Counted from the stretch's first letter, positions 1-49,030 are shown. The stretch: 64,000 bases of DNA from the human T2T-CHM13v2.0 reference genome, Homo sapiens (GCA_009914755.4 CP068257.2:896001-960000); one strand, 5' to 3'. Translations and numbers: made by a program. The notes: a model not told the origin generated them from the sequence alone.

Positions 1-24
1 ATGTAACCCTTGTCTAGGATCTCC
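1..24. repeat. Tail of the upstream (truncated) HOR copy, landmark phase
   Basis: Bases 1-24 match the 24 bp that precede the landmark in every subsequent HOR copy. Confidence 0.8.
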
Positions 25-26909: not shown

Positions 26910-28883
26910 CTAAATTAACTTTGTGACATAACCCTGTACTGATCATCCAGGTGATGGGGCTTTTGTCTAGGCTCTGCCTAAGGGGGCATTGTGACATATT
27001 TCTGCATTGATCACCCAGGTGGCGAACTCTTCTCTTGGATCTGCCTATGGGGGCATTGTGACAAATCTCTGCACTGATCACCCAGGTGATGTAACTGTTG
27101 TGTAACCTCTGCCTACAAGGGAATTGTGAGAGATCTCGCCACTGATCACCCAAGTGATGTAACCATTGTCTAGGCTTTGCGTACAGGGGGCTTTGTGACA
27201 TACCTTTGCACTGATCACCCAGGTGATGTAACACATCTAAGTTCGGCCTAAAGGAGCTTTGTGACATATCTCTGCACTGATCACGTAGGTGATGTAACAC
27301 TTTTATAAGCACTGCCTACAGGGAATTTTGACAAATCTCTGCACTGATCACCTAGGTGATGTAACGCTTGTCTACCCTCTGTCCAACGGGGCATTGTGAA
27401 ATATCTCTGCACTGATCACCCAGGTGATTCAACTCTTGACTAGGATCTGCCTACAGAGGTTATTGTGAAATATCTCTGCACTGATAAACTAGGTGGTGTA
27501 ACCCTTATCCAAGCTCTGCCTACAGGGGCGTTTTCACGTATCCCTGAAGTGATGACAAAGGTGATGTAACTCTTGCCTAGGCTTTGCCTACAGGGGACAT
27601 TGGACATATATCTGCACTGATCACCCAGGTGATGCAAATCTTGCCTAGGCTTTGCCTACAGGGGACATTGTGACATATCGCTTCAATGATCACCCATGTG
27701 ATGCAACACTTGCCTAGGCTTTGCCTACAGGGGACATTGTGACATATCTCTGCACTGATCTCCCAGGTGCTGTAACTTTAGTCTAGACTCTGGCTACACG
27801 GCATTGTGACATATCACTGCACTGATCAACCAGGTGATATAACTCTTGTCTAGGCTCTGCCTACAGGGGGCTTGTGACATATCTCTACACTGGTCACCCA
27901 GGTGATATAACTCTTCTCTACGATCTGCCTACAGGGTGCTTTGTGACATATCCCTGCAATGATCACCCAGGTGATCTAACTCTGGTTTAAGCTCTGCCTA
28001 AAGGGGCATTGTGACAGATCTCTGCACTGATCACTCAGGTGATGTAACTATTGTCTAGGCTCTGCTTAAAGGGGCCTTGTCACATATCTCTGCAATGATC
28101 ACCCAGGTGATGTAACTCTTGTCTAGCCTCTGCTTCCACGGCATATTGTGACATATCTATGCACTGATCACCTTAGTGATGTAACACTTGTGTAGGCTCG
28201 GCCTACAGGGGAATATTGACATATCTCTGCACTGTTAACCGAGGTGATTTATCTCTTGTCTACGCTGTGCCCACAGGGGGATTGAGACATATCTCTGCAC
28301 TGATCCCGAGGTGATCCAACTGTTGCCTGGTCTCTGCCTACTGGGGACATTGTGACATATCTCTGCACTGATCTCCCAGGTGCTGTAACTTTAGTCTAGG
28401 CTCTGGCTGCACGGCATTGTGACATATCACTGCACTGATCACCCAGGTGATATAAATCTTTTCTAGGCTCTGCCTACAATGGCCTTGTGACATATATCTG
28501 CACTGATCACCCAGGTGATATAACTCTTCTCTAGGATCTGACCACAAGGTGCTTTGTGGCATTTCCCTGCAATGATCACCCAGGTGATATACCACTTGCC
28601 AAGGCTCTGCCTACAGGGGCATTTCAATGTATCTCTGCACTGATCACCTAGGTCTTGTAACTCTTTTCTAGGATCTGCCCACAGGGTGTTTTTTGACGTA
28701 TCCCAGCAAGGATTACCCAGGTGATGTACCGCTCATCAAGGCTCTGCCTACAGGCACATTGCGATGTATCTCTGCACTGATCACCTAGGTCATGTAACTT
28801 TTGTCTAGGCTCTGCCTACCATGGCATTGTGACATATCTCTGCACTAATCATCCAAGTGATGTAACCCTTGTCTAGGATCTGC
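26910..28883. repeat. HOR copy 15, 1974 bp
   Basis: Landmark spacing is 1974. Confidence 0.85.
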
Positions 28884-30857
28884 CTAAATTAACTTTGTGA
28901 CATAACCCTGTACTGATCATCCAGATGATGGGGCTTTTTTCTAGGCTCTGCCTAAGGGGGCATTGTGACATATTTCTGCATTGATCACCCAGGTGGCGAA
29001 CTCTTCTCTTGGATCTGCCTATGGGGGCATTGTGACAAATCTCTGCACTGATCACACAGGTGATGTAACTGTTGTGTAACCTCTGCCTACAGGGGAATTG
29101 CGAGAGATCTCGCCACTGATCAACCAAGTGATGTAACCATTGTCTAGGCTTTGCGTACAGGGGGCTTTGTGACATACCTTTGCACTGATCACCCAGGTGA
29201 TGTAACACATCTAAGTTCGGCCTAAAGGAGCTTTGTGACATATCTCTGCACTGATCACTTAGGTGATGTAACACTTTTATAAGCACTGCCTACAGGGAAT
29301 TTTGACAAATCTCTGCACTGATCACCTAGGTGATGTAACGCTTGTCTACCCTCTGTCCAACGGGGCATTGTGAAATATCTCTGCACTGATCACCCAGGTG
29401 ATTCAACTCTTGACTAGGATCTGCCTACAGAGGTTATTGTGAAATATCTCTGCACTGATAAACTAGGTGGTGTAACCCTTATCCAAGCTCTGCCTACAGG
29501 GGCGTTTTCACATATCCCTGAAGTGATGACAAAGGTGATATAACTCTTTCCTAGGCTTTGCCTACAGGGGACATTGGACATATATCTGCACTGATCACCC
29601 AGGTGATGCAACTCTTGCCTAGGCTTTTCCTACAGGGGACATTGTGACATATCGCTTCAATGATCACCCATGTGATGCAACTCTTGCCTAGGCTTTGCCT
29701 ACAGGGGACATTGTGACATATCTCTGCACTGATCTCCCAGGTGCTGTAACTTTAGTCTAGACTCTGGCTACACGGCATTGTGACATATCACTGCACTGAT
29801 CAACCAGGTGATATAACTCTTGTCTAGGCTCTGCCTACAGGGGGCTTGTGACATATCTCTGCACTGATCACCCAGCTGATATAACTCTTCTCTAGGATCT
29901 GCCTACAGGGTGCTTTGTGACATATCCCTGCAATGATCACCCAGGTGATCTAACTCTGGTTTAAGCTCTGCCTAAAGGGGCATTGTGACAGATCTCTGCA
30001 CTGATCACTCAGGTGATGTAACTATTGTCTAGGCTCTGCTTAAAGGGGCCTTGTCACATATCTCTGCAATGATCACCCAGGTGATGTAACTCCTGTCTAG
30101 CCTCTGCTTTCACGGCATATTGTGACATATCTATGCACTGATCACCTTAGTGATTTACCACTTGTGCAGGCTCGGCCTACAGGGGAATATTGACATATCT
30201 CTGCACTGTTAACCGAGGTGATTTAACTCTTGTCTAGGCTGTGCCCACAGGGGGATTGAGACATATCTCTGCACTGATCCCGAGGTGATCCAACTGTTGC
30301 CTGGTCTCTGCCTACTGGGGACATTGTGACATATCTCTGCACTGATCTCCCAGGTGCTGTAACTTTAGTCTAGGCTCTGGCTACACGGCATTGTGACATA
30401 TCACTGCACTGATGACCCAGGTGATATAAATCTTGTCTAGGCTCTGCCTACAATGGCCTTGTGACATATCTCTGCACTGATCACCCAGGTGATATAACTC
30501 TTCTCTAGGATCTGACCACAGGGTGCTTTGTGGCATTTCCCTGCAATGATCACCCAGGTGATATACCACTTGCCAACGCTCTGCCTACAGGGGCATTGCA
30601 ATGTGTCTCTGCACTGATCACCTAGGTCTTGTAACTCTTTTCTTCGATCTGCCCTCAGGGTGCTTTTTGACGTATCCCAGCAAGGATTACCCAGGTGATG
30701 TACCTCTCATCAAGGCTCTGCCTACCGACACATTGCGATGTATCTCTGCACTGATCACCTAGGTCATGTAACTTTTGTCTAGGCTCTGCCTACGATGGCA
30801 TTGTGACATATCTCTGCACTAATCATCCAAGTGATGTAACCCTTGTCTAGAATCTGT
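28884..30857. repeat. HOR copy 16, 1974 bp
   Basis: Landmark spacing is 1974. Confidence 0.85.
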
Positions 30858-32831
30858 CTAAATTAACTTTGTGACATAACCCTGTACTAATCATCCGGGT
30901 GATGGGGCTTTTGTCTAGGCTCTGCCTAAGGGGGCATTGTGACATATTTCTACATTGATCACCCAGGTGGCGAACTCTTCTCTTGGATCTGCCTATGGGG
31001 GCATTGTGACAAATCTCTGCACTGATCGCCCAGGTGATGAAACTGTTGTGTAACCTCTGCCTACAGGGGAATTGTGAGAGATCTCGCCACTGATCACCCA
31101 AGTGATGTAACCATTGTCTAGGCTTTGCGTACAGGGGGCTTTGTGACATACATTTGCACTGATCACCCAGGTGATGTAACACATCTATGTTCGGCCTAAA
31201 GGAGCTTTGTGACATATCTCTGCACTGATCACTTAGGTGATGTAACACTTTTATAAGCACTGCCTACAGGGAATTTTGACAAATCTCTGCACTGATCACC
31301 TAGGTGATGTAACGCTTGTCTACCCTCTGTCCAACGGGGCATTGTGAAATATCTCTACACTGATCACACAGGTGATTCAACTCTTGGCTAGGATCTGCCT
31401 ACAGAGGTTATTGTGAAATATCTCTGCACTGATAAACTAGGTGGTGTAACCCTTATCCAAGCTTTGCCTACAGGGGCGTTTTCACATATCCCTGAAGTGA
31501 TGACAAAGGTGATGTAACTCTTGCCTAGGCTTTGCCTACAGGAGACATTGGACATATATCTGCACTGATCACCCAGGTGATTCAACTCTTGCCTAGGCTT
31601 TGCCTACAGGAGACATTGTGACATATCGCTTCAATGATCACCCATGTGATGCAACTCTTCCCTGGGCTTTGCCTACAGGGGACATTGTGACATATCTCTG
31701 TACTGATCTCCCAGGTGCTGTAACTTTAGTCTAGACTCTGGCTACACGGCATTGTGACATATCACTGCACTCATCAACCAGGTGATATAACTCTTGTCTA
31801 GGCTCTGCCTACAGGGGGCTAGTGACATATCTCTGCACTGATCACCCAGGTGATATAACTCTTCTCTAGGATCTGCCTACAGGGTGCTTTGTGACATATC
31901 CCTGCAATGATCACCCAGGTGATCTAACTCTGGTTTAAGCTCTGCCTAAAGGGGCATTGTGACAGATCTCTGCACTGATCACTCAGGTGATGTAACTATT
32001 GTCTAGGCTCTGCTTAAAGGGGCCTTGTCACATATCTCTGCACTGATCACCCAGGTGATGTAACTCTTGTCTAGCCTCTGCTTTCACGGCATATTGTGAC
32101 ATATCTATGCACTGATCACCTTAGTGATGTAACAATTGTGTAGGCTCGGCCTACAGGGGAATATTGACATATCTCTGCACTGTTAACCGAGGTGATTTAA
32201 CTCTTGTCTAGGCTGTGCCCACAGGGGGATTGAGACATATCTCTGCACTGATCCCGAGGTGATCCAACTGTTGCCTGGTCTCTGCCTACTGGGGACATCG
32301 TGACATATCTCTGCACTGATCTCCCAGGTGCTGTAACTTTAGTCTAGGCTCTGGCTACACGGCATTGTGACATATCACTGCACTGATGACCCAGGTGATA
32401 TAAATCTTGTCTAGGCTCTGCCTACAATGGCCTTGTGACATATCTCTGCACTGATCACCCAGGTGATATAACTCTTCTCTAGGATCTGACCACAGGGTGC
32501 TTTGTGGCATTTCCCTGCAATGATCACCCAGGTGATATACCACTTGCCAAGGCTCTGCCTACAGGGGCATTGCAATGTATCTCTGCACTAATCACCTAGG
32601 TCTTGTAACTCTTTTCTTCGATCTGCCCTCAGGGTGCTTTTTGACGTATCCCAGCAAGGATTACCCAGGTGATGTACCTCTCATCAAGGCTCTGCCTACA
32701 GACACATTGCGATGTATCTCTGCACTGATCACCTAGGTCATGTAACTTTTGTCTAGGCTCTGCCTACGATGGCATTGTGACATATCTCTGCACTAATCAT
32801 CCAAGTGATGTAACCCTTGTCTAGGATCTGC
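30858..32831. repeat. HOR copy 17, 1974 bp
   Basis: Landmark spacing is 1974. Confidence 0.85.
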
Positions 32832-34805
32832 CTAAATTAACTTTGTGACATAACCCTGTACTGATCATCCGGGTGATAGGGCTTTTTTCTAGGCTCTGCC
32901 TAAGGGGGCATTGTGACATATTTCTGCATTGATCACCCAGGTGGCGAACTCTTCTCTTGGATCTGCCTATGGGGGCATTGTGACAAATCTCTGCACTGAT
33001 CACCCAGGTGATGTAACTGTTGTGTAACCTCTGCCTACAGGGGAATTGTGAAAGATCTCGCCACTGATCACCCAAGTGATGTAACCATTGTCTAGGCTTT
33101 GCGTACAGGGGGCTTTGTGACATACCTTTGCACTGATCACCCAGGTGATGTAACACATCTAAGTTCGGCCTAAAGGAGCTTTGTGACATATCTCTGCACT
33201 GATCACTTAGGTGATGTAACACTTTTTTAACCACTGCCTACAGGGAATTTTGACAAATCTCTGCACTGATCACCTAGGTGATGTAACGCTTGTCTACTCT
33301 CTGTCCAACGGGGCATTTTGAAATATCTCTGCACTGATCACCCAGGTGATTCAACTCTTGACTAGGATCTGCCTACAGAGGTTATTGTGAAATATCTCTG
33401 CACTGATAAACTAGGTGGTGTAACCCTTATCCAAGCTCTGCCTACAGACTCGTTTTCACATATCCCTAAAGTGATGACAAAGGAGATGTAACTCTTGCCT
33501 AGGCTTTCCCTACGGGGGACATTGGACATATATCTGCACTGATCACCCAGGTGATACAACTCTTGCCTAGGCTTTCCCTACAGGGGACATTGTGACATAT
33601 CGCTTCAATGATCACTCATGTGATGCAACTCTTGCCTAGGCTTTGCCTACAGGGGACATTGTGACATATCTCTGCACTGATCTCCCAGGTGCTGTAACTT
33701 TAGACTAGACTCTGGCTACACGGCATTGTGACATATCACTGCACTGATCAACCAGGTGATATAACTCTTGTCTAGGCTCTGCCTACAGGGGGCTAGTGAC
33801 ATATCTCTGCACTGATCACCCAGGTGATATAACTCTTCTCTAGGATCTGCCTACAGGGTGCTTTGTGACATATCCCTGCAATGATCACCCAGGTGATCTA
33901 ACTCTGGTTTAAGCTCTGCCTAAAGGGGCATTGTGACAGATCTCTGCACTGATCACTCAGGTGATGAAACTATTGTCTAGGCTCTGCTTAAAGGGGCCTT
34001 GTCACATATCTCTGCAATGATCACCCAGGAGAGGTAACTCTTGTCTAGCCTCTGCTTCCGCGGCATATTGTGACATATCTATGCACTGATCACCTTAGTG
34101 ATGTAACACTTGTGTAGGCTCGGCCTACAGGGGAATATTGACATATCTCTGCACTGTTAACCGAGGTGACTTAACTCTTGTCTAGGCTGTGCCCACAGGG
34201 GGATTGAGACATATCTCTGCACTGATCCCGAGGTGATCCAACTGTTGCCTGGTCTCTGCCTACTGGGGACATTGTGACATATCTCTGCACTGATCTCCCA
34301 GGTGCTGTAAATATAGTCCAGGCTCTGGCTACACGGCATTGTGACATATCACTGCACTGATCACCCAGGTGATATAAATCTTGTCTAGGCTCTGCCTACA
34401 ATGGCCTTGTGACATATCTCTGCACTGATCACCCAGGTGATATAACTCTTCTCTAGGATCTGACCACAGGGTGCTTTGTGGCATTTCCCTGCAATGATCA
34501 CCCAGGTGATATACCACTCGCCAACGCTCTGCCTACAGGGGCATTGCAATTTATCTCTGCACTGTTCACCTAGGTCTTGTAACTCTTTTCTTCGATCTGC
34601 CCACAGGGTGATTTTTGACGTATCCCAGCAAGGATTACCCAGGTGATGTACCTCTCATCAAGGCTCTGCCTACAAGCACATTGCGATGTATCTCTGCACT
34701 GATCACCTAGGTCATGTAACTTTTGTCTAGGCTCTGCCTACGATGGCATTGTGACATATCTCTGCACTAATCATCCAAGTGATGTAACACTTCTCTAGGA
34801 TCTGC
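32832..34805. repeat. HOR copy 18, 1974 bp (type A' of the 5854-bp super-repeat; carries the 3'-half variant block)
   Basis: Landmark spacing is 1974. Its pseudo-ORFs are near-identical (one residue) or identical to those of copy 21. The variant block ccaggagaggtaac / cttccgcggc / gtgacttaac / gtaaatatagtccagg lies at 34021-34330. Confidence 0.85.
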
Positions 34806-36711
34806 CTAAATTAACTTTGTGACATAACCCTGTACTGATCATCCAGGTGATGGGGCTTTTGTCTAGGCTCTGCCTAAGGGGGCATTGTGACATATTTCTG
34901 CATTGATCACCCAGGTGGCGAACTCTTCTCTTGGATCTGCCTATGGGGGCATTGTGACAAATCTCTGCACTGATCACCCAGGTGATGTAACTGTTGTGTA
35001 ACCTCTGCCTACAGGGGAATTGTGAGAGATCTCGCCACTGATCACCCAAGTGATGTAACCATTGTCTAGGCTTTGCGTACTGGGGGCTTTGTGACATACC
35101 TTTGCACTGATCACCCAGGTTATGTAACACATCTAAGTTCGGCCTAAAGGAGCTTTGTGACATATCTCTGCACTGATCACTTAGGTGATGTAACACTTTT
35201 ATAAGCACTGCCTACAGGAAATTTTGACAAATCTCTGCACTGATCACCTAGGTGATGTAACGCTTGTCTACCCTCTGTCCAACGGGGCATTGTGAAATAT
35301 CTCTGCACTGATCACCCAGGTGATTCAACTCTTGACTAGGATCTGCCTACAGAGGTTATTGTGAAATATCTCTGCACTGATAAACTAGGTGGTGTAACCC
35401 TTATCCAAGCTCTGCCTACAGGGGCGTTTTCACATATCCCTGAAGTGATGACAAAGGTGATGTAACTCTTGCCTAGGCTTTGCCTACAGGGGACATTGTG
35501 ACATATCGCTTCAATGATCACCCATTTGATGCAACTCTTGCCTAGGCTTTGCCTACAGGGGACATTGTGACATATCTCTGCACTGATCTCCCAGGTGCTG
35601 TAACTTTAGTCTAGACTCTGGCTACACGGCATTGTGACATATCACTGCACTGATCAACCAGGTGATATAACCCTTGTCTAGGCTCTGCCTACAGGGGGCT
35701 TGTGACATAGCTCTGCACTGATCACCCAGGTGATATAACTCTTCTCTAGGATCTGCCTACAGGGTGCTTTGTGACATATCCCTGCAATGATCACCCAGGT
35801 GATCTAACTCTGGTTTAAGCTCTGCCTAAAGGGGCATTGTGACAGATCTCTGCACTGATCACTCAGGTGATGTAACTATTGTCTAGGCTCTGCTTAAAGG
35901 GGCCTTGTCACATATCTCTGCAATGATCACCCAGGTGATGTAACTCTTGTCTAGCCTCTGCTTTCACGGCATATTGTGACATATCTATGCACTGATCACC
36001 TTAGTGATGTAACACTTGTGCAGGCTCGGCCTACAGGGTAATATTGACATATCCCTGCACTGTTAACCGAGGTGATTTAACTCTTGTCTAGGCTGTGCCC
36101 ACAGGGGGATTGAGACATATCTCTGCACTGATCCCGAGGTGATGCAACTGTTGCCTGGTCTCTGCCTACTGGGGACATTGTGAAATATCTCTGCACTGAT
36201 CTCCCAGGTGCTGTAACTTTAGTCTAGGCTCTGGCTACACGGCATTGTGACATATCACTGCACTGATCACCCAGGTGATATAAATCTTGTCTAGGCTCTG
36301 CCTACAATGGCCTTGTGACATATCTCTGCACTGATCACCCAGGTGATATAACTCTTCTCTAGGATCTGACCACAGGGTGCTTTGTGACATTTCCCTGCAA
36401 TGATCACTCAGGTGATATACCACTTGCCAAGGCTCTGCCTACAGGGGCATTGCAATGTATCTCTGCACTGATCACCTAGGTCTTGTAACTCTTTTCTTTG
36501 ATCTGCCCTCAGGGTGCTTTTTGACGTATCCCAGCAAGGATTACCCAGGTGATGTACCTCTCATCAAGGCTCTGCCTACAGGCACATTGCGATGTATCTC
36601 TTCACTGATCACCTAGGTCATGTAACTTTTGTCTAGGCTCTGCCTACGATTGCATTGTGACATATCTCTGCACTAATCATCCAAGTGATGTAACCCTTGT
36701 CTAGGATCTGC
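34806..36711. repeat. HOR copy 19, 1906 bp: 28-monomer variant (an M11/M12-type monomer lost; type B')
   Basis: Landmark spacing is 1906. At about 35440-35560 M10 is followed by the M12-like tatcgcttcaatgatcacccatttgat monomer with no M11. Confidence 0.85.
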
Positions 36712-38685
36712 CTAAATTAACTTTGTGACGTAACCCTGTACTGATCATCCAGGTGATGGGGCTTTTGTCCAGGCTCTGCCTAAGGGGGCATTGTGACATA
36801 TTTCTGCATTGATAACCCAGGTGGCGAACTCTTCTCTTGGATCTGCCTATGGGGGCATTGTGACAAATCTCTGCACTGATCACCCAGGTGATGTAACTGT
36901 TGTGTAACCTCTGCCTACAGGGGAATTGTGAGAGATCTCGCCACTGATCACCCAAGTGATGTAACCATTGTCTAGGCTTTGCGTACAGGGGGCTTTGTGA
37001 CATACCTTTGCACTGATCACCCAGGTGATGTAACACATCTATGTTCGACCTAAAGGAGCTTTGTGACATATCTCTGCACTGATCACTTAGGTGATGTAAC
37101 ACTTTTATAAACACTGCCTACAGGGAATTTTGACAAATCTCTGCACTGATAACCTAGGTGATGTAACGCTTGTCTACCCTCTGTCCAACGGGGCATTGTG
37201 AAATATCTCTGCACTGATCACCCAGGTGATTCAACTCTTGACTAGGATCTGCCTACAGAGGTTATTGTGAAATATCTCTGCACTGATAAACTAGGTGGTG
37301 TAACACTTATCCAAGCTCTGCCTACAGGGGCGTTTTCACATATCCCTGAAGTGATGACAAAGGTGATGTTACTCTTGCCTAGGCTTTGCCTACAGGGGAC
37401 ATTGGATATATATCTGCACTGATCACCCAGGTGATGCAACTCTTGCCTAGGCTTTTCCTACAGGGGACATTGTGACATATCGCTTCAATGATCACCCATG
37501 TGATGCAACTCTTGCCTAGGCTTTGCCTACAGGGGACATTGTGACATATCTCTGCACTGATCTCCTAGGTGCTGTAACTTTAGTCTAGACTCTGGATACA
37601 CGGCATTGTGACATATCACTGCACTGATCAACCAGGTGATATAACTCTTGTCTAGGCTCTGCCTACAGGGGGCTTGTGACATAGCTCAGCACTGATCACG
37701 CAGGTGATATAACTCTTCTCTAGGATCTGCCTACAGGGTGCTTTGTGACATATCCCTGCAATGATCACCCAGGTGATCTAACTCTGGTTTAAGCTCTGCC
37801 TAAAGGGGCATTGTGACAGATCTCTGCACTGATCACTCAGGTGATGAAACTATTGTCTAGGCTCTGCTTAAAGGGGCCTTGTCACATATCTCTGCAATGA
37901 TCACCCAGGAGAGGTAACTCTTGTCTAGCCTCTGCTTCCGCGGCATATTGTGACATATCTATGCACTGATCACCTTAGTGATGTAACACTTGTGTAGGCT
38001 CGGCCTACAGGGGAATATTGACATATCTCTGCACTGTTAACCGAGGTGACTTAACTCTTGTCTAGGCTGTGCCCACAGGGGGATTGAGACATATCTCTGC
38101 ACTGATCCCGAGGTGATCCAACTGTTGCCTGGTCTCTGCCTACTGGGGACATTGTGACATATCTCTGCACTGATCTCCCAGGTGCTGTAAATATAGTCCA
38201 GGCTCTGGCTACACGGCATTGTGACATATCACTGCACTGATCACCCAGGTGATATAAATCTTGTCTAGGCTCTGCCTACAATGGCCTTGTGACATATCTC
38301 TGCACTGATCACCCAGGTGATATAACTCTTCTCTAGGATCTGACCACAGGGTGCTTTGTGGCATTTCCCTGCAATGATCACCCAGGTGATATACCACTCG
38401 CCAAGGCTCTGCCTACAGGGGCATTGCAATTTATCTCTGCACTGTTCACCTAGGTCTTGTAACTCTTTTCTTCGATCTGCCCACAGGGTGATTTTTGACG
38501 TATCCCAGCAAGGATTACCCAGGTGATGTACCTCTCATCAAGGCTCTGCCTACAAGCACATTGCGATGTATCTCTGCACTGATCACCTAGGTCATGTAAC
38601 TTTTGTCTAGGCTCTGCCTACGATGGCATTGTGACATATCTCTGCACTAATCATCCAAGTGATGTAACACTTGTCTAGGATCTTC
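36712..38685. repeat. HOR copy 20, 1974 bp (type C', mosaic: C' 5' half plus the 3'-half variant block)
   Basis: Landmark spacing is 1974. The 3' block at 37901-38210 is identical to that in copies 18 and 21. Confidence 0.85.
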
Positions 38686-40659
38686 CTAAATTAACTTTGT
38701 GACATAACCCTGTACTGATCATCCGGGTGATGGGGCTTTTGTCTAGGCTCTGCCTAAGGGGGCATTGTGACATATTTCTGCATTGATCACCCAGGTGGCG
38801 AACTCTTCTCTTGGATCTGCCTATGGGGGCATTGTGACAAATCTCTGCACTGATCACCCAGGTGATGTAACTGTTGTGTAACCTCTGCCTACAGGGGAAT
38901 TGTGAAAGATCTCGCCACTGATCACCCAAGTGATGTAACCATTGTCTAGGCTTTGCGTACAGGGGGCTTTGTGACATACCTTTGCACTGATCACCCAGGT
39001 GATGTAACACATCTAAGTTCGGCCTAAAGGAGCTTTGTGACATATCTCTGCACTGATCACTTAGGTGATGTAACACTTTTTTAACCACTGCCTACAGGGA
39101 ATTTTGACAAATCTCTGCACTGATCACCTAGGTGATGTAACGCTTGTCTACTCTCTGTCCAACGGGGCATTTTGAAATATCTCTGCACTGATCACCCAGG
39201 TGATTCAACTCTTGACTAGGATCTGCCTACAGAGGTTATTGTGAAATATCTCTGCACTGATAAACTAGGTGGTGTAACCCTTATCCAAGCTCTGCCTACA
39301 GACTCGTTTTCACATATCCCTAAAGTGATGACAAAGGAGATGTAACTCTTGCCTAGGCTTTCCCTACGGGGGACATTGGACATATATCTGCACTGATCAC
39401 CCAGGTGATACAACTCTTGCCTAGGCTTTCCCTACAGGGGACATTGTGACATATCGCTTCAATGATCACTCATGTGATGCAACTCTTGCCTAGGCTTTGC
39501 CTACAGGGGACATTGTGACATATCTCTGCACTGATCTCCCAGGTGCTGTAACTTTAGACTAGACTCTGGCTACACGGCATTGTGACATATCACTGCACTG
39601 ATCAACCAGGTGATATAACTCTTGTCTAGGCTCTGCCTACAGGGGGCTAGTGACATATCTCTGCACTGATCACCCAGGTGATATAACTCTTCTCTAGGAT
39701 CTGCCTACAGGGTGCTTTGTGACATATCCCTGCAATGATCACCCAGGTGATCTAACTCTGGTTTAAGCTCTGCCTAAAGGGGCATTGTGACAGATCTCTG
39801 CACTGATCACTCAGGTGATGAAACTATTGTCTAGGCTCTGCTTAAAGGGGCCTTGTCACATATCTCTGCAATGATCACCCAGGAGAGGTAACTCTTGTCT
39901 AGCCTCTGCTTCCGCGGCATATTGTGACATATCTATGCACTGATCACCTTAGTGATGTAACACTTGTGTAGGCTCGGCCTACAGGGGAATATTGACATAT
40001 CTCTGCACTGTTAACCGAGGTGACTTAACTCTTGTCTAGGCTGTGCCCACAGGGGGATTGAGACATATCTCTGCACTGATCCCGAGGTGATCCAACTGTT
40101 GCCTGGTCTCTGCCTACTGGGGACATTGTGACATATCTCTGCACTGATCTCCCAGGTGCTGTAAATATAGTCCAGGCTCTGGCTACACGGCATTGTGACA
40201 TATCACTGCACTGATCACCCAGGTGATATAAATCTTGTCTAGGCTCTGCCTACAATGGCCTTGTGACATATCTCTGCACTGATCACCCAGGTGATATAAC
40301 TCTTCTCTAGGATCTGACCACAGGGTGCTTTGTGGCATTTCCCTGCAATGATCACCCAGGTGATATACCACTCGCCAAGGCTCTGCCTACAGGGGCATTG
40401 CAATTTATCTCTGCACTGTTCACCTAGGTCTTGTAACTCTTTTCTTCGATCTGCCCACAGGGTGATTTTTGACGTATCCCAGCAAGGATTACCCAGGTGA
40501 TGTACCTCTCATCAAGGCTCTGCCTACAAGCACATTGCGATGTATCTCTGCACTGATCACCTAGGTCATGTAACTTTTGTCTAGGCTCTGCCTACGATGG
40601 CATTGTGACATATCTCTGCACTAATCATCCAAGTGATGTAACACTTGTCTAGGATCTGC
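38686..40659. repeat. HOR copy 21, 1974 bp (type A', counterpart of copy 18)
   Basis: Landmark spacing is 1974. Pseudo-ORFs at 38675, 39216, 40011 and 40183 match those at 32821 (one residue differs), 33362, 34157 and 34329 (identical). Confidence 0.85.
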
Positions 40660-42565
40660 CTAAATTAACTTTGTGACATAACCCTGTACTGATCATCCAG
40701 GTGATGGGGCTTTTGTCTAGGCTCTGCCTAAGGGGGCATTGTGACATATTTCTGCATTGATCACCCAGGTGGCGAACTCTTCTCTTGGATCTGCCTATGG
40801 GGGCATTGTGACAAATCTCTGCACTGATCACCCAGGTGATGTAACTGTTGTGTAACCTCTGCCTACAGGGGAATTGTGAGAGATCTCGCCACTGATCACC
40901 CAAGTGATGTAACCATTGTCTAGGCTTTGCGTACTGGGGGCTTTGTGACATACCTTTGCACTGATCACCCAGGTGATGTAACACATCTAAGTTCGGCCTA
41001 AAGGAGCTTTGTGACATATCTCTGCACTGATCACTTAGGTGATGTAACACTTTTATAAGCACTGCCTACAGGAAATTTTGACAAATCTCTGCACTGATCA
41101 CCTAGGTGATGTAACGCTTGTCTACCCTCTGTCCAACGGGGCATTGTGAAATATCTCTGCACTGATCACCCAGGTGATTCAACTCTTGACTAGGATCTGC
41201 CTACAGAGGTTATTGTGAAATATCTCTGCACTGATAAACTAGGTGGTGTAACCCTTATCCAAGCTCTGCCTACAGGGGCGTTTTCACATATCCCTGAAGT
41301 GATGACAAAGGTGATGTAACTCTTGCCTAGGCTTTGCCTACAGGGGACATTGTGACATATCGCTTCAATGATCACCCATTTGATGCAACTCTTGCCTAGG
41401 CTTTGCCTACAGGGGACATTGTGACATATCTCTGCACTGATCTCCCAGGTGCTGTAACTTTAGTCTAGACTCTGGCTACACGGCATTGTGACATATCACT
41501 GCACTGATCAACCAGGTGATATAACCCTTGTCTAGGCTCTGCCTACAGGGGGCTTGTGACATAGCTCTGCACTGATCACCCAGGTGATATAACTCTTCTC
41601 TAGGTTCTGCCTACAGGGTGCTTTGTGACATATCCCTGCAATGATCACCCAGGTGATCTAACTCCGGTTTAAGCTCTGCCTAAAGGGGCATTGTGACAGA
41701 TCTCTGCACTGATCACTCAGGTGATGTAACTATTGTCTAGGCTCTGCTTAAAGGGGCCTTGTCACATATCTCTGCAATGATCACCCAGGTGATGTAACTC
41801 TTGTCTAGCCTCTGCTTTCACGGCATATTGTGACATATCTATGCACTGATCACCTTAGTGATGTAACACTTGTGCAGGCTCGGCCTACAGGGTAATATCG
41901 ACATATCCCTGCACTGTTAACCGAGGTGATTTAACTCTTGTCTAGGCTGTGCCCACAGGGGGATTGAGACATATCTCTGCACTGATCCCGAGGTGATGCA
42001 ACTGTTGCCTGGTCTCTGCCTACTGGGGACATTGTGAAATATCTCTGCACTGATCTCCCAGGTGCTGTAACTTTAGTCTAGGCTCTGGCTACACGGCATT
42101 GTGACATATCACTGCACTGATCACCCAGGTGATATAAATCTTGTCTAGGCTCTGCCTACAATGGCCTTGTGACATATCTCTGCACTGATCACCCAGGTGA
42201 TATAACTCTTCTCTAGGATCTGACCACAGGGTGCTTTGTGACATTTCCCTGCAATGATCACTCAGGTGATATACCACTTGCCAAGGCTCTGCCTACAGGG
42301 GCATTGCAATGTATCTCTGCACTGATCACCTAGGTCTTGTAACTCTTTTCTTTGATCTGCCCTCAGGGTGCTTTTTGACGTATCCCAGCAAGGATTACCC
42401 AGGTGATGTACCTCTCATCAAGGCTCTGCCTACAGGCACATTGCGATGTATCTCTGCACTGATCACCTAGGTCATGTAACTTTTGTCTAGGCTCTGCCTA
42501 CGATTGCATTGTGACATATCTCTGCACTAATCATCCAAGTGATGTAACCCTTGTCTAGGATCTGC
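40660..42565. repeat. HOR copy 22, 1906 bp: 28-monomer variant (type B', counterpart of copy 19)
   Basis: Landmark spacing is 1906. Pseudo-ORFs at 40649 and 41190 are identical to those at 34795 and 35336. Confidence 0.85.
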
Positions 42566-44470
42566 CTAAATTAACTTTGTGACGTAACCCTGTACTGATC
42601 ATCCAGGTGATGGGGCTTTTGTCCAGGCTCTGCCTAAGGGGGCATTGTGACATATTTCTGCATTGATAACCCAGGTGGCGAACTCTTCTCTTGGATCTGC
42701 CTATGGGGGCATTGTGACAAATCTCTGCACTGATCACCCAGGTGATGTAACTGTTGTGTAACCTCTGCCTACAGGGGAATTGTGAGAGATCTCGCCACTG
42801 ATCACCCAAGTGATGTAACCATTGTCTAGGCTTTGCGTACAGGGGGCTTTGTGACATACCTTTGCACTGATCACCCAGGTGATGTAACACATCTATGTTC
42901 GACCTAAAGGAGCTTTGTGACATATCTCTGCACTGATCACTTAGGTGATGTAACACTTTTATAAACACTGCCTACAGGGAATTTTGACAAATCTCTGCAC
43001 TGATAACCTAGGTGATGTAACGCTTGTCTACCCTCTGTCCAACGGGGCATTGTGAAATATCTCTGCACTGATCACCCAGGTGATTCAACTCTTGACTAGG
43101 ATCTGCCTACAGAGGTTATTGTGAAATATCTCTGCACTGATAAACTAGGTGGTGTAACACTTATCCAAGCTCTGCCTACAGGGGCGTTTTCACATATCCC
43201 TGAAGTGATGACAAAGGTGATGTAACTCTTGCCTAGGCTTTGCCTACAGGGGACATTGGATATATATCTGCACTGATCACCCAGGTGATGCAACTCTTGC
43301 CTAGGCTTTGCCTACAGGGGACATTGTGACATATCTGTGCACTGATCTCCCAGGTGCTGTAACTTTAGTCTAGACTCTGGCTACACGGCATTGTGACATA
43401 TCACTGCACTGATCAACCAGGTGATATAACCCTTGTCTAGGCTCTGCCTACAGGGGGCTTGTGACATAGCTCTGCACTGATCACCCAGGTGATATAACTC
43501 TTCTCTAGGATCTGCCTACAGGGTGCTTTGTGACATATCCCTGCAATGATCACCCAGGTGATCTAACTCTGGTTTAAGCTCTGCCTAAAGGGGCATTGTG
43601 ACAGATCTCTGCACTGATCACTCAGGTGATGTAACTATTGTCTAGGCTCTGCTTAAAGGGGCCTTGTCACATATCTCTGCAATGATCACCCAGGTGATGT
43701 AACTCTTGTCTAGCCTCTGCTTTCACGGCATATTGTGACATATCTATGCACTGATCACCTTAGTGATGTAACACTTGTGCAGGCTCGGCCTACAGGGTAA
43801 TATTGACATATCCCTGCACTGTTAACCGAGGTGATTTAACTCTTGTCTAGGCTGTGCCCACAGGGGGATTGAGACATATCTCTGCACTGATCCCGAGGTG
43901 ATGCAACTGTTGCCTGGTCTCTGCCTACTGGGGACATTGTGAAATATCTCTGCACTGATCTCCCAGGTGCTGTAACTTTAGTCTAGGCTCTGGCTACACG
44001 GCATTGTGACATATCACTGCACTGATCACCCAGGTGATATAAATCTTGTCTAGGCTCTGCCTACAATGGCCTTGTGACATATCTCTGCACTGATCACCCA
44101 GGTGATATAACTCTTCTCTAGGATCTGACCACAGGGTGCTTTGTGACATTTCCCTGCAATGATCACTCAGGTGATATACCACTTGCCAAGGCTCTGCCTA
44201 CAGGGGCATTGCAATGTATCTCTGCACTGATCACCTAGGTCTTGTAACTCTTTTCTTTGATCTGCTCTCAGGGTGCTTTTTGACGTATCCCAGCAAGGAT
44301 TACCCAGGTGATGTACCTCTCATCAAGGCTCTGCCTACAGGCACATTGCGATGTATCTCTGCACTGATCACCTAGGTCATGTAACTTTTGTCTAGGCTCT
44401 GCCTACGATTGCATTGTGACATATCTCTGCACTAATCATCCAAGTGATGTAACCCTTGTCTAGGATCTGC
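42566..44470. repeat. HOR copy 23, 1905 bp: 28-monomer variant (type C' with M12 lost)
   Basis: Landmark spacing is 1905. The tatcgcttcaatgat monomer is missing at about 43290-43340. Confidence 0.85.
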
Positions 44471-46444
44471 CTAAATTAACTTTGTGACGTAACCCTGTAC
44501 TGATCATCCAGGTGATGGGGCTTTTGTCCAGGCTCTGCCTAAGGGGGCATTGTGACATATTTCTGCATTGATAACCCAGGTGGCGAACTCTTCTCTTGGA
44601 TCTGCCTATGGGGGCATTGTGACAAATCTCTGCACTGATCACCCAGGTGATGTAACTGTTGTGTAACCTCTGCCTACAGGGGAATTGTGAGAGATCTCGC
44701 CACTGATCACCCAAGTGATGTAACCATTGTCTACGCTTTGTGTACAGGGGGCTTTGTGACATACCTTTGCACTGATCACCCAGGTGATGTAACACATCTA
44801 TGTTCGACCTAAAGGAGCTTTGTGACATATCTCTGCACTGATCACTTAGGTGATGTAACACTTTTATAAACACTGCCTACAGGGAATTTTGACAAATCTC
44901 TGCACTGATAACCTAGGTGATGTAACGCTTGTCTACCCTCTGTCCAACGGGGCATTGTGAAATATCTCTGCACTGATCACCCAGGTGATTCAACTCTTGA
45001 CTAGGATCTGCCTACAGAGGTTATTGTGAAATATCTCTGCACTGATAAACTAGGTGGTGTAACACTTATCCAAGCTCTGCCTACAGGGGCGTTTTCACAT
45101 ATCCCTGAAGTGATGACAAAGGTGATGTAACTCTTGCCTAGGCTTTGCCTACAGAGGACATTGGATATATATCTGCACTGATCACCCAGGTGATGCAACT
45201 CTTGCCTTGGCTTTTCCTACAGGGGACATTGTGACATATCGCTTCAATGATCACCCATGTGATGCAACTCTTGCCTAGGCTTTGCCTACAGGGGACATTG
45301 TGACATATCTCTGCACTGATCTCCTAGGTGCTGTAACTTTAGTCTAGACTCTGGCTACACGGCATTGTGACATATCACTGCACTGATCAACCAAGTGATA
45401 TAACTCTTGTCTAGGCTCTGCCTACAGGGGGCTTGTGACATAGCTCAGCACTGATCACCCAGGTGATATAACTCTTCTCTAGGATCTGCCTACAGGGTGC
45501 TTTGTGACATATCCCTGCAATGATCACCCAGGTGATCTAACTCTGGTTTAAGCTCTGCCTAAAGGGGCATTGTGACAGATCTCTGCACTGATCACTCAGG
45601 TGATGTAACTATTGTCTAGGCTCTGCTTAAAGGGGCCTTGTCACATATCTCTGCAATGATCACCCAGGTGATGTAACTGTTGTCTAGCCTCTGCTTTCAC
45701 GGCATATTGTGACATATCTATGCACTGATCACCTTAGTGATGTAACACTTGTGCAGGCTCGGCCTACAGGGTAATATTGACATATCTCTGCACTGTTAAC
45801 CGAGGTGATTTAACTCTTGTCTAGGCTGTGCCCACAGGGGGATTGAGACATATCTCTGCACTGATCCCGAGGTGATCCAACTGTTGCCTGGTCTCTGCCT
45901 ACTGGGGACATTGTGACATATCTCTGCACTGATCTCCCAGGTGCTGTAACTTTAGTCTAGGCTCTGGCTACACGGCATTGTGACATATCACTGCACTGAT
46001 CACCCAGGTGATATAAATCTTGTCTAGGCTCTGCCTACAATGGCCTTGTGACATATCTCTGCACTGATCACCCAGGTGATATAACTCTTCTCTAGGATCT
46101 GACCACAGGGTGCTTTGTGACATTTCCCTGCAATGATCACCCAGGTGATATACCACTCGCCAAGGCTCTGCCTACAGGGGCATTGCAATGTATCTCTGCA
46201 CTGATCACCTAGGTCTTGTAACTCTTTTCTTTGATCTGCCCTCAGGGTGCTTTTTGACGTATCCCAGCAAGGATTACCCAGGTGATGTACCTCTCATCAA
46301 GGCTCTGCCTACAGGCACATTGCGATGTATCTCTGCACTGATCACCTAGGTCATGTAACTTTTGTCTAGGCTCTGCCTAGGATTGCATTGTGACATATCT
46401 CTGCACTAATCATCCAAGTGATGTAACACTTGTCTAGGATCTGC
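44471..46444. repeat. HOR copy 24, 1974 bp (type C'-like)
   Basis: Landmark spacing is 1974. Confidence 0.85.
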
Positions 46445-49030
46445 CTAAATCAACTTTGTGACATAACCCTGTACTGATCATCCAGGTGATGGGGCTTTTG
46501 TCTAGGCTCTGCCTAAGGGGGCATTGTGACATATTTCTGTATTGATCACCCAGGTGGCGAACTCTTCTCTTGGATCTGCCTATGGGGGCATTGTGACAAA
46601 TCTCTGCACTGATCACCCAGGTGATGTAACTCTTGTGTAACCTCTGCCTACAGGGGAATTGTGAGAGATCTCGCCACTGATCACCCAAGTGATGTAACCA
46701 TTGTCTAGGTTTTGCGTACAGGGGGCTTTTTGACATACCTTTGCACTGATCACCCAGGTGATGTAACACATCTAAGTTCGGACTAAAGGAGCTTTGTGAC
46801 ATATCTCTGCACTGATCACTTAGGTGATGTAACACTTTTATAAGCACTGCCTACAGGGAATTTTGAAAAATCTCTGCACTGATCACCTAGGTGATGTAAC
46901 GCTTGTCTACCCTCTGTCCAACGGGGCATTGTGAAATATCTCTGCACTGATCACCCAGGTGATTCAACTCTTGACTAGGATCTGCCTACAGAGGTTATTG
47001 TGAAATATCTCTGCACTGATAACTAGGTGGTGTAACACTTATCCAAGCTCTGCCTACAGGGGCGTTTTCACATATCCCTGAAGTGATGACAAAGGTGATG
47101 TAACTCTTGCCTAGGCTTTGCCTACAGGGGACATTGGATATATATCTGCACTGATCACCCAGGTGATGCAACTCTTGCCTAGGATTTTCCTACAGGGGAC
47201 ATGGTGACATATCGCTTCAATGATCACCCATGTGATGCAACTCTTGCCTAGGCTTTGCCTACAGGGGACATTGTGACATATCTCTGCACTGATCTCCCAG
47301 GTGCTGTAACTTTAGTCTAGACTCTGGCTACACGGCATTGTGACATATCACTGCACTGATCAACCAGGTGATATAACTCTTGTCTAGGCTCTGCCTACAG
47401 GGGGCTTGTGACATAGCTCAGCACTGATCACCCAGATGATATAACTCTTCTCTAGGATCTGCCTACAGGGTGCTTTGTGACATATCCCTGCAATGATCAC
47501 CCAGGTGATCTAACTCTGGTTTAAGCTCTGCCTAAAGGGGCATTGTGACAGATCTCTGCACTGATCACTCAGGTGATGTAACTATTGTCTAGGCTCTGCT
47601 TAAAGGGGCCTTGTCACATATCTCTGCACTGATCACCCAGGTGATGTAACTCTTGTCTAGCCTCTGCTTTCACGGCATATTGTGACATATCTATGCACTG
47701 ATCACCTTAGTGATGTAACAATTGTGTAGGCTCGGCCTACAGGGGAATATTGACATATCTCTGCACTGTTAACCAAGGTGATTTAACTCTTGTCTAGGCT
47801 GTGCCCACAGGGGGATTGAGACATATCTCTGCACTGATCCCGAGGTGATCCAAATGTTGCCTGGTCTCTGCCTACTGGGGACATTGTGACATATCTCTGC
47901 ACTTATCTCCCAGGTGCTGTAACTTTAGTCTAGGCTCTGGCTCCACGGCATTGTGACATATCACTGCACTGATCACCCAGGTGATATAACCCTTGTCTAG
48001 GCTCTGCCTACAGGGGGCTTGTGACATAGCTCTGCACTGATCACCCAGGTGATATAACTCTTCTCTAGGATCTGCCTACAGGGTGCTTTGTGACATATCC
48101 CTGCAATGATCACCCAGGTGATCTAACTCTGGTTTAAGCTCTGCCTAAAGGGGCATTGTGACAGATCTCTGCACTGATCACTCAGGTGATGTAACTATTG
48201 TCTAGGCTCTGCTTAAAGGGGCCTTGTCACATATCTCTGCAACGATCACCCAGGTGATGTAACTCTTGTCTAGCCTCTGCTTTCACGGCATATTGTGACA
48301 TATCTATGCACTGATCACCTTAGTGATGTAACACTTGTGCAGGCTCGGCCTACAGGGTAATATTGACATATCTCTGCACTGTTAACCGAGGTGATTTAAC
48401 TCTTGTCTAGGCTGTGCCCACAGGGGGATTGAGACATATCTCTGCACTGATCCCGAGGTGATGCAACTGTTGCCTGGTCTCTGCCTACTGGGGACATTGT
48501 GAAATATCTCTGCACTGATCTCCCAGGTGCTGTAACTTTAGTCTAGGCTCTGGCTACACGGCATTGTGACATATCACTGCACTGATCACCCAGGTGATAT
48601 AAATCTTGTCTAGGCTCTGCCTACAATGGCCTTGTGACATATCTCTGCACTGATCACCCAGGTGATATAACTCTTCTCTAGGATCTGACCACAGGGTGCT
48701 TTGTGACATTTCCCTGCAATGATCACTCAGGTGATATACCACTTGCCAAGGCTCTGCCTACAGGGGCATTGCAATGTATCTCTGCACTGATCACCTAGGT
48801 CTTGTAACTCTTTTCTTTGATCTGCCCTCAGGGTGCTTTTTGACGTATCCCAGCAAGGATTACCCAGGTGATGTACCTCTCATCAAAGCTCTGCCTACAG
48901 GCACATTGCGATGTATCTCTGCACTGATCACCTAGGTCATGTAACTTTTGTCTAGGCTCTGCCTACGATTGCATTGTGACATATCTCTGCACTAATCATC
49001 CAAGTGATGTAACCCTTGTCTAGGATCTGC
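46445..49030. repeat. HOR copy 25, 2586 bp: 38-monomer copy carrying a tandem duplication of 9 monomers (M15-M23, 614 bp)
   Basis: Landmark spacing 46445->49031 is 1974+612. Segment 47371-47984 is repeated as 47985-48598. At the junction M23 (..ctggctccacggcattgtgacatatcactgcactgatcacccaggtgatataa) is followed by M15 (cccttgtctaggctctgcctacagggggcttgtgacatagctct) instead of M24. There is also a 1-bp loss at about 46990. Confidence 0.85.

What the first reader, a model, noticed from the sequence alone, without database searches (positions are those of the whole stretch)
32832..44470. Second, independent super-repeat of 5854 bp (A'-B'-C') including a fixed 28-monomer member
Copies 18-20 and 21-23 repeat with period 5854. 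Type A' is MVKKVLHH / MYHLGDQCRYMSNVPRRESLGKSYISFVITLG. Type B' is LHNLGDQ..PQYAKPRQ and is already the 1906-bp deletion form. Type C' is MFIKVLHH..SSFRSNIDV..LGYQCRNM. Most pseudo-ORFs are identical at lag 5854. The deletion variant B' was therefore amplified as part of a larger unit. This documents at least two separate block-amplification events within one 64 kb window. C'-type copies recur outside the block (copies 24 and 26) without clean periodicity.
Basis: seen in the sequence. Interest (0 to 1): 0.5.

Follow-up and report, generated by a model that had tools for sequence, protein, structure and literature searches.

The report
Local block duplication in beta satellite
The window is one long primate-type beta-satellite array, and the reported "super-repeat" is a real but incomplete, later-patched 4.6-kb duplication spanning about two and a half of its 2-kb repeat units, which is ordinary satellite-DNA turnover and not a gene or a new kind of element.

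Summary
The whole 64-kb window is a single head-to-tail array of 68-bp monomers, of the beta-satellite / Sau3A type. They are organised in a 29-monomer, 1974-bp higher-order repeat (HOR), with 32 full copies.

The lag-5854 signal is real. Positions 32888-37481 match 38742-43335 with 9 mismatches in 4594 bp (99.8%). The flanks, and most other HOR pairs, differ by about 2.9%. By copy, c18/c21 differ at 4 sites, c19/c22 at 5, and c20/c23 at 34.

The repeat is not two clean A'-B'-C' units:
- The second "unit" is 5785 bp, not 5854 bp.
- c23 is a 1905-bp hybrid: C' up to monomer 10, monomer 11 missing, then a B' 3' part.
- c20 is also a hybrid: a C' 5' half joined to an A' 3' kilobase that is identical to c21.
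- An overlapping lag-1905 duplication links c22/c23 to c23/c24.

B' (1906 bp) carries a monomer-10/11 hybrid. This is a different deletion from the common 1905-bp form.

Best reading: a three-HOR out-of-register exchange duplicated A'-B'-C', and further exchange or conversion followed.

Interest is low.

The parts
1..64000 (.). Continuous 68-bp satellite array of beta-satellite / Sau3A type, in one orientation. It holds 32 complete copies of a 29-monomer HOR (modal length 1974 bp), plus partial copies at both ends.
   Evidence: TRF gives a single array over 1-64000 with period 68. The best self-match lag is 1974. Anchor hits define 33 copy starts. GC is 0.465-0.474 throughout. No inverted repeats were found in 30000-47000.
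32888..37481 (+). First copy of the near-identical tract: A' from offset 57, all of B', and C' up to monomers 10/11.
   Evidence: 9 mismatches to 38742-43335 at lag 5854. The tract was also recovered by an all-lag scan at >=99.5% identity. 300-nt probes at 33453, 35359 and 35500 match at 100% only at +5854.
38742..43335 (+). Second copy of the near-identical tract. Strictly it ends at 43287, the end of monomer 10 of c23. The last 48 nt align c23's monomer 12 to c20's monomer 11.
32832..34805 (+). HOR copy c18, type A', 1974 bp.
   Evidence: 4 mismatches to c21.
34806..36711 (+). HOR copy c19, type B', 1906 bp, 28 monomers. The monomer-10/11 hybrid lies at about 35460-35528.
   Evidence: The hybrid monomer has the 5' end of m10 and the 3' end of m11. 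5 mismatches to c22.
36712..38685 (+). HOR copy c20, a recombinant. It is C'-type from offset 1 to about 990. The A'-type 3' part, 37701-38683, is identical to c21 and differs from c18 at 2 sites.
   Evidence: Lag 1974 gives zero mismatches over 37701-38683, and lag 3880 gives two. Segment matrices are and the painting.
38686..40659 (+). HOR copy c21, type A', 1974 bp.
40660..42565 (+). HOR copy c22, type B', 1906 bp, with the same m10/11 hybrid at about 41314-41382.
   Evidence: It has three private substitutions relative to c19 and c23.
42566..44470 (+). HOR copy c23, 1905 bp, a recombinant. It is C'-type through monomer 10 (to 43287). Monomer 11 is absent. From 43288 it is B'-type, with 0 differences to c19 in columns 1001-1640.
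   Evidence: Lag 7759 (c19 3' part to c23 3' part) gives 4 mismatches over 35527-36981.
41381..45240 (+). Overlapping tandem duplication of period 1905. The B' 3' part plus C' 5' part occurs twice: c22/c23, then c23/c24.
   Evidence: Lag 1905 gives 10 mismatches between 41381 and 43335. Also listed.
44471..46444 (+). HOR copy c24, a full-length C' type (C' 5' part, middle and its own 3' part). It lies just outside the reported block.
   Evidence: 2/650 differences from c20 and c23 in the 5' part, and 2/640 from c26 in the 3' part.

Best explanation
The window is non-coding beta-satellite DNA of the hominoid type. It is a simple array without LSau or D4Z4 interspersion. A 29-monomer, 1974-bp HOR is being homogenised by out-of-register homologous exchange.

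The reported feature is most likely a tandem segmental duplication. Unequal sister-chromatid or homologue exchange, misaligned by three HOR units (1974+1906+1974 = 5854 bp), copied an A'-B'-C' stretch. That stretch included a 28-monomer variant that had already lost 68 bp through a monomer-10/monomer-11 exchange.

The block was then overwritten by at least two more events of the same kind.
1. An exchange between a C' copy and a B' copy, one monomer out of register within the near-identical monomers 10-12. This created the 1905-bp hybrid c23 and the lag-1905 duplicate.
2. A roughly 1-kb exchange or conversion that put an A' 3' part into c20.

What is shown: the tracts, their boundaries, the mosaic composition and the two distinct deletion junctions. 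What is inferred: the order of events, and crossover as opposed to conversion. No function beyond being satellite DNA is implied.
For: Array identity:
- 68-bp period over the whole window.
- HOR period 1974 bp, made of 29 monomers of 66-69 bp.
- 1056 GATC sites for about 940 monomers, with modal spacings of 68, 69 and 67.
- GC 0.47 and CpG observed/expected 0.18.
[quoted passage not shown] That this primer lies in the 4qA beta-satellite is my own recollection.
- The literature definition is 68-bp monomers, a Sau3A site in nearly every unit and multimeric HORs (PMC8125562, 10.1101/589531, 10.1101/2021.07.12.452052).

Duplication:
- 99.8% identity over 4594 bp at lag 5854, against 2.9% divergence in both flanks.
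- c18/c21 = 4 and c19/c22 = 5 mismatches, against a typical 30-60.
- The 1906-bp m10/11 hybrid is shared by c19 and c22 and occurs otherwise only in the divergent c31.

Later events:
- c20's 3' part equals c21's, with 0 mismatches over 983 bp.
- c23's 5' part equals c20's (0/650). Its 3' part equals c19's (0/640). The switch falls exactly where monomer 11 is missing.
- Private substitutions form star-like patterns among c19/c22/c23 and among c20/c23/c24. This points to a short burst of events.

General mechanism: unequal crossover and gene conversion are the accepted drivers of satellite HOR variation (PMC9859433).
Against: - A single unequal crossover predicts identity over the full 5854 bp. 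Only 4.55-4.6 kb is seen, so secondary events have to be invoked, and I could not find a unique, fully parsimonious order for them.
- Gene conversion without any copy-number change would leave the same pattern in a single haplotype.
- The assembly itself cannot be validated here. Near-identical satellite blocks are where assemblies err.
- No reference beta-satellite consensus or primate genome was available in the tools. Family assignment therefore rests on defining features plus one published primer, not on a direct alignment to a reference. Species and chromosome are unknown.
Confidence: 0.75

Rival explanations
1. Long-tract gene conversion (non-crossover) rather than duplication. Under this reading, pre-existing HOR copies c21-c23 were overwritten by sequence copied from c18-c20 (or the reverse), including the 68-bp deletion, with no gain of copies.
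For: The mosaic contains tracts best described as patches. One is 983 bp of A' sequence inside c20 with 0 mismatches to c21. c23 switches donor at one point. Conversion within homogeneous satellite arrays is documented for alpha satellite (Schindelhauer and Schwarz 2002, cited in PMC9859433).
Against: A 4.6-kb continuous tract that carries a length variant and crosses two HOR boundaries is long for conversion. The lag-1905 tract creates an extra hybrid copy (c23) between a B' and a full C' (c24). That is the expected product of a crossover, not of a patch repair.
Confidence: 0.15
2. Assembly artefact. The two near-identical tracts could be one genomic tract placed twice, or reads from different array positions or homologous acrocentric arrays merged together.
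For: Nothing in the sequence points to this. It is a generic risk for 97-100% identical satellite blocks. The T2T authors themselves ran separate validation of BSat arrays (PMC9186530).
Against: The two tracts are not identical. There are 9 scattered differences, several of them private to one copy and consistent across three-way comparisons. Boundaries coincide with biologically sensible points, namely monomer 10/11/12 paralogy. The neighbouring mosaic is internally coherent.
Confidence: 0.07
3. A functional super-unit. The A'-B'-C' order, or the 137-codon open frame present once per HOR, would be maintained by selection, for example as a coding or protein-binding module.
For: A 137-codon open frame on the minus strand is present in almost every HOR copy.
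Against: Among 69 distinct variants in that frame, 14 are synonymous and 55 non-synonymous. That is 20% synonymous, against 21% expected with no constraint. They fall evenly over codon positions (25/21/23). The A'-B'-C' order occurs fewer than two times and is already broken by recombinants.
Confidence: 0.02

Closest known systems
Human beta satellite (Sau3A family) higher-order repeat arrays, e.g. pB3 on chromosome 9 and pB4 on the acrocentric short arms (Waye and Willard 1989, as summarised in PMC8125562)
   Same: 68-bp monomers, a GATC site in nearly every monomer, about 47% GC, a multimeric HOR tandemly reiterated at 97-100% identity, and a simple array with no interspersed LSau.
   Different: I could not align the window to the published pB3/pB4 units or to any reference genome. 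Whether this 29-monomer, 1974-bp HOR is one of the described subfamilies, and which chromosome or species it comes from, is open.
Alpha-satellite superHORs, i.e. recurring combinations of HOR haplotypes (T2T-HG002 annotation, PMC13477032)
   Same: A run of distinguishable HOR variants (A', B', C') recurs as a block with a period of several HOR units.
   Different: The satellite family is different. The operational definition there needs the n-mer to repeat at least three times consecutively. Here there are about 1.8 units, and the third member differs between units.
HOR length variants produced by homologous unequal crossing-over between paralogous monomers (alpha satellite of chromosome 17, Waye and Willard 1986, cited in PMC9859433)
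   Same: The 28-monomer forms arise by loss of exactly one monomer between highly similar neighbouring monomers (m10, m11 and m12 are 85-90% alike). This leaves a hybrid monomer, and the variants then spread within the array.
   Different: Two different junctions (m10/11 hybrid, 1906 bp; m11 loss, 1905 bp) coexist within 64 kb. One 1905-bp copy (c23) appears to have arisen anew from a C' x B' exchange.
Intrachromosomal conversion within homogeneous alpha-satellite arrays (Schindelhauer and Schwarz 2002, cited in PMC9859433)
   Same: Kilobase-scale patches of identical sequence are shared by non-adjacent HOR copies, for example the A' 3' part in c18, c20 and c21.
   Different: That work used variant mapping in DXZ1. 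Here the inference comes from one assembled haplotype only.

Membership tests
Beta satellite (Sau3A family) | Tandem array of diverged monomers of about 68 bp | tested here: met
   TRF gives period 68 over 1-64000 at 74% matches. The 29 monomers of c18 are 66-69 bp long and 58-93% alike.
Beta satellite (Sau3A family) | Sau3A (GATC) site in nearly every monomer | tested here: met
   1056 GATC sites in about 940 monomers, with the most frequent spacings 68, 69 and 67. The criterion is taken from 10.1101/589531.
Beta satellite (Sau3A family) | Monomers organised in multimeric higher-order repeats that are nearly identical to each other | tested here: met
   The HOR is 1974 bp. Copies differ at 0-90 sites, typically 1.5-3%.
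Beta satellite (Sau3A family) | Sequence homology to the reference beta-satellite monomer | tested here: inconclusive
   No reference consensus was available. [quoted passage not shown] That the primer lies in the 4qA beta-satellite, and that the consensus otherwise agrees with beta satellite, rests on my recollection. PMC297815 is not held.
Beta satellite (Sau3A family) | Hominoid genome, pericentromeric or acrocentric short-arm location | not testable with these tools
   No primate genome collection is available. CpG observed/expected of 0.18 fits methylated vertebrate DNA. Only contaminant fragments were found in the public collections.
superHOR (definition used for alpha satellite in PMC13477032) | Unit is an n-mer (n = 2-9) of HORs, of which at least one is a different HOR haplotype | tested here: met
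   A', B' and C' differ from each other at 37-51 sites, and B' differs in length.
superHOR (definition used for alpha satellite in PMC13477032) | [quoted passage not shown] | tested here: not met
   The identity tract is 4.55-4.6 kb of a 5.85-kb period. There is no continuation upstream (c15-17 against c18-20: 55, 33 and 56 mismatches) or downstream.
Simple tandem duplication by one unequal crossover | Two adjacent head-to-tail copies whose identity is far above background | tested here: met
Simple tandem duplication by one unequal crossover | The near-identity spans one full period | tested here: not met
   4594 of 5854 bp. The remaining ~1.26 kb differs by 2.9% and by a 69-bp indel. Secondary events are therefore required.
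Simple tandem duplication by one unequal crossover | Copy-number difference between haplotypes at the site | not testable with these tools
   Only one haplotype is available.

The most novel reading that the evidence does not exclude
The triplet of near-identical monomers 10-12 may act as a preferred site for out-of-register exchange in this beta-satellite HOR. It would repeatedly generate 28-monomer variants: at least two junction types, and probably three or four independent events in 64 kb. It would also seed multi-HOR block duplications. On this reading, beta-satellite arrays build short-lived local 'superHORs' by the same process seen in alpha satellite, with breakpoints that can be predicted from monomer paralogy.
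Probability: 0.3. Interest if true: 0.25.

Novelty: new member of a known kind. Interest (0 to 1): 0.1.

Why it matters
It matters little beyond bookkeeping. The block shows, at base-pair resolution, how a beta-satellite HOR array turns over. Single-monomer deletions arise between paralogous monomers. Multi-HOR blocks are duplicated. Kilobase patches are exchanged. All of this sits within about 12 kb, at 0.1-0.5% divergence.

The diagnostic junctions could serve as markers. These are the m10/11 hybrid of B', the m10|m12 junction of c23 and the C'/A' switch in c20. They could be used to follow this array between haplotypes or between acrocentric chromosomes, and to check assemblies. None of this changes what is known about satellite evolution.

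Tried and rejected
1. The 137-codon minus-strand frame varies neutrally, with 14 synonymous and 55 non-synonymous variants and flat codon positions.
2. MAFFT alignment of all copies placed one common 69-bp deletion plus a 1-bp insertion in B'. Direct inspection shows this is an alignment artefact. The 1906-bp and 1905-bp forms have different junctions.
3. Single-crossover models for the whole c18-c24 arrangement. I tried several (C x A exchange at offset ~990; c17 x c23 exchange at lag 5854; duplication first against 1905-bp insertion first). None reproduces the present order without an extra conversion or exchange, so the order of events is left open.
4. Relative age of the two blocks: 7/8653 against 9/4594 mismatches is not significantly different (binomial p = 0.063). 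Their independence therefore rests on unit length and sequence type, not on divergence.
5. The repeat finder is capped at 300-nt reference copies and is swamped by the satellite. It was useful only for three 100% probes at +5854.
6. External collections. One HOR-specific 28-mer found only a 674-bp low-coverage contig in a bacterial assembly (87% identical, a different beta-satellite subfamily) and a chimeric 1443-bp metagenome contig whose first 524 bp are 96.5-97% identical. Neither is long enough to test whether the A'-B'-C' order exists elsewhere.
7. Literature. I found no paper describing this HOR or beta-satellite superHORs. The original description, PMC297815, is not held.
Full report
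**What the window is.**
Tandem Repeats Finder reports a single array over 1-64000 with a 68-bp unit. Composition is flat, at GC 0.465-0.474. Self-comparison peaks at lag 1974 and its multiples.

The modal length is 1974 bp. Variants measure 1975, 1906 (c19, c22), 1905 (c11, c13, c23, c29, c30, c32), 1902 (c27), 1770 (c31), 1360 (c10) and 2586 bp (c25).

Copy c18 splits into 29 monomers of 66-69 bp. GATC occurs 1056 times for about 940 monomers, with modal spacings of 68, 69 and 67. CpG observed/expected is 0.18.

These are the defining features of beta satellite, the Sau3A family: 68-bp monomers, a Sau3A site in nearly every unit and multimeric HORs. The family is enriched on acrocentric short arms and in several pericentromeres (PMC8125562, 10.1101/589531, 10.1101/2021.07.12.452052).

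[quoted passage not shown] That this primer sits in the 4qA beta-satellite is my own recollection. I had no reference consensus or primate genome to align against. The family assignment is therefore strong but not formally closed, and species and chromosome are unknown.

**Checking the observation.**
At lag 5854 there are only nine mismatches between 32888 and 37481: at 34525, 34793, 35121, 35751, 35811, 36045, 36602, 37370 and 37456. That is 99.80% identity over 4594 bp.

| Stretch | Comparison | Mismatches | Divergence |
|---|---|---|---|
| 32888-37481 | lag 5854 | 9 in 4594 bp | 0.20% |
| Left flank 30858-32887 | lag 5854 | 58 in 2030 bp | 2.86% |
| Right flank 37551-38685 | lag 5785 | 33 in 1135 bp | 2.91% |

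The probability of nine or fewer mismatches at a 2.5% background is about 1e-37.

A scan of all lags from 1000 to 62000 for tracts of at least 99.5% identity finds this as the second longest in the window. The longest is the lag-5922 block at 1-14575.

Pairwise global alignments give 4 mismatches for c18/c21 and 5 for c19/c22. Pairs outside the two blocks typically give 30-60.

For the third pair it is only partly met. c20/c23 differ at 34 sites. Two lie in the first ~770 bp, and the rest of the pair is at background level. c23 is 1905 bp, so the second 'unit' is 5785 bp.

All of them fall at HOR offsets 86-725. This explains why the 3' differences went unnoticed.

**Anatomy of the block.**
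I painted the variant sites and built separate mismatch matrices for three sections: the 5' part (columns 1-650), the middle (800-1000) and the 3' part (1001-1640). The result is a clear mosaic.

| Copy | Length | Composition |
|---|---|---|
| c18 | 1974 bp | A' throughout |
| c19 | 1906 bp | B' throughout |
| c20 | 1974 bp | C' to about offset 990, then A' |
| c21 | 1974 bp | A' throughout |
| c22 | 1906 bp | B' throughout |
| c23 | 1905 bp | C' through monomer 10, monomer 11 missing, then B' |
| c24 | 1974 bp | C' throughout |

- In c20 the A' part, 37701-38683, has zero mismatches to c21 at lag 1974 and two to c18 at lag 3880.
- c23 has 0/650 differences from c20 in the 5' part. It has 0/640 differences from c19 and 3 from c22 in the 3' part.
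- c24 is a full C', and c26 is a close relative of it.

A second tandem duplication of period 1905 overlaps the block. Positions 41381-43335 (c22 3' part plus c23 5' part) match 43286-45240 (c23 3' part plus c24 5' part) with 10 mismatches.

Three-way comparison assigns the few substitutions to single copies: one private to c19, three to c22 and two to c23. Among the C' 5' parts, one is private to c20, one to c23 and four to c24. The copies of each type therefore separated at about the same time.

**The 28-monomer forms.**
MAFFT aligned all short copies with one common 69-bp gap. Reading the monomers directly shows two different junctions.

- B' (c19, c22, and also the otherwise much-deleted c31) has a hybrid monomer with the 5' end of m10 and the 3' end of m11. 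The loss is 68 bp, giving 1906 bp.
- The 1905-bp copies keep an intact m10 followed directly by m12, a loss of 69 bp.
- Monomers 10, 11 and 12 are 85-90% identical to one another. This is the substrate expected for exchange one monomer out of register.
- c23 joins a C'-type m10 to a B'-type m12 and 3' part. Its loss of m11 is best explained by the C' x B' exchange itself, independently of the other 1905-bp copies.
- c27 carries an m11/m12 hybrid with a C'-type 5' signature (TTTTCC). That is a further distinct breakpoint.

**How it most likely arose.**
The simplest account uses known satellite mechanisms, namely unequal crossover and gene conversion (PMC9859433).

First, an exchange misaligned by three HOR units (1974+1906+1974 = 5854 bp) duplicated an A'-B'-C' stretch. 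Then a C' x B' exchange within monomers 10-12 inserted the 1905-bp hybrid c23. Finally, a roughly 1-kb exchange or conversion gave c20 an A' 3' part.

I could not find a unique order of events. Several single-crossover schemes fail to reproduce the present order without one extra step. A conversion-only history cannot be excluded from one haplotype. An assembly artefact also cannot be excluded here. However, the scattered and internally consistent private differences argue against it.

**Independence from the first block.**
The lag-5922 block consists of three 1974-bp copies. Positions 1-8653 match 5923-14575 with 7 mismatches, and a partial third unit appears at lag 11844.

Its copies are not specially related to A', B' and C': c1/c18 = 47, c2/c19 = 29 and c3/c20 = 52 mismatches. 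Two separate block events in the window are therefore supported. The two divergences (0.08% and 0.20%) do not differ significantly (p = 0.063).

**Not a gene.**
The only open frames of 70 codons or more in the block are one 137-codon minus-strand frame per HOR copy. Among 69 distinct variants in that frame, 14 are synonymous and 55 non-synonymous. That is 20% synonymous, against 21% expected without constraint. The variants fall evenly on codon positions (25/21/23). The 'pseudo-ORFs' are convenient fingerprints only.

**Comparison with what is known.**
The block works like the superHORs annotated in alpha satellite (PMC13477032). It fails that operational definition, which needs at least three consecutive repeats.

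The one-monomer deletions match the classic unequal-crossover HOR variants of alpha satellite (Waye and Willard 1986, cited in PMC9859433). HOR organisation of beta satellite has been known since 1989 (summarised in PMC8125562).

I found no paper describing this particular HOR or block.

Public collections yielded two contaminant fragments. One is a 674-bp contig, 87% identical. The other is a chimeric contig whose first 524 bp are 96.5-97% identical in register. The second shows the HOR family exists in at least one other data set. Neither is long enough to test the A'-B'-C' order.

**Verdict.**
The feature is real, the coordinates are essentially right, and the 'block duplication' reading is broadly right. 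It is not two clean units, and it is ordinary satellite turnover. Interest is low.

Noticed in passing
window 1-15390: The other super-repeat, of period 5922 (three 1974-bp HORs). Positions 1-8653 match 5923-14575 with 7 mismatches, and 1-2731 match again at lag 11844. That makes about 2.5 units, cut off by the window start. c2 = c5, c4 = c7 and c1/c4 = 2 mismatches.
   Followed up: partly
every HOR copy, e.g. window 33623-33899 vs 34236-34512 (c18 monomers 12-15 vs 21-24): The HOR has an internal 9-monomer sub-period (lag 613). Monomers 12-15 resemble 21-24 at 90-93%. Two copies look like exchanges in this register. c10 (17792-19151, 1360 bp) lacks 9 monomers. c25 (46445-49030, 2586 bp) has 9 extra.
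   Followed up: partly
window 58691-60460 (c31): This is the most divergent HOR copy, with 73-90 mismatches to all others. It is 1770 bp and has three separate one-monomer deletions. One of them is the same m10/11 hybrid junction as B'.
   Followed up: no
monomers 10-12 of all copies (HOR offsets 655-860): One-monomer deletions recur here, with at least two junction types and probably three or four independent events: B'/c31; the c11/13/29/30/32 group; c23; and c27 with an m11/m12 hybrid. 11 of 33 copies are affected. This may be a hotspot for out-of-register exchange.
   Followed up: partly
window 43384-46450 vs 47944-51010: A further patchy duplication at lag 4560. The c23 3' part plus c24 matches the c25 3' part plus c26. 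Two tracts of 1153 and 1242 bp reach at least 99.5%, separated by a less similar stretch. The B' 3' type also reappears in c25 (lag 12319 from c19).
   Followed up: partly
minus strand, once per HOR, e.g. window 32821-33234: A 137-codon open frame (GTG start) is present in about 28 of 32 HOR copies. Its variation is neutral (14 synonymous, 55 non-synonymous; codon positions 25/21/23). It is a by-product of the repeat, not a gene.
   Followed up: yes
whole window: CpG observed/expected is 0.18, and there is a steady negative GC and AT skew along the whole array. This fits heavily methylated vertebrate satellite DNA in a single orientation. No inversion breakpoints occur in this window.
   Followed up: no
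L002 1-524 (ENA OWLM01015575.1) and L001 (WYCU01000056.1, Azonexaceae bacterium assembly): Public microbial data contain beta-satellite fragments. L002 is a chimeric metagenome contig. Its first 524 bp are 96.5-97% identical to this HOR (monomers 25-29 and 1-3) and are fused to high-GC bacterial coding sequence. L001 is a 674-bp contig of 0.13x coverage in a bacterial genome assembly, 87% identical. Both look like host-DNA contamination.
   Followed up: partly
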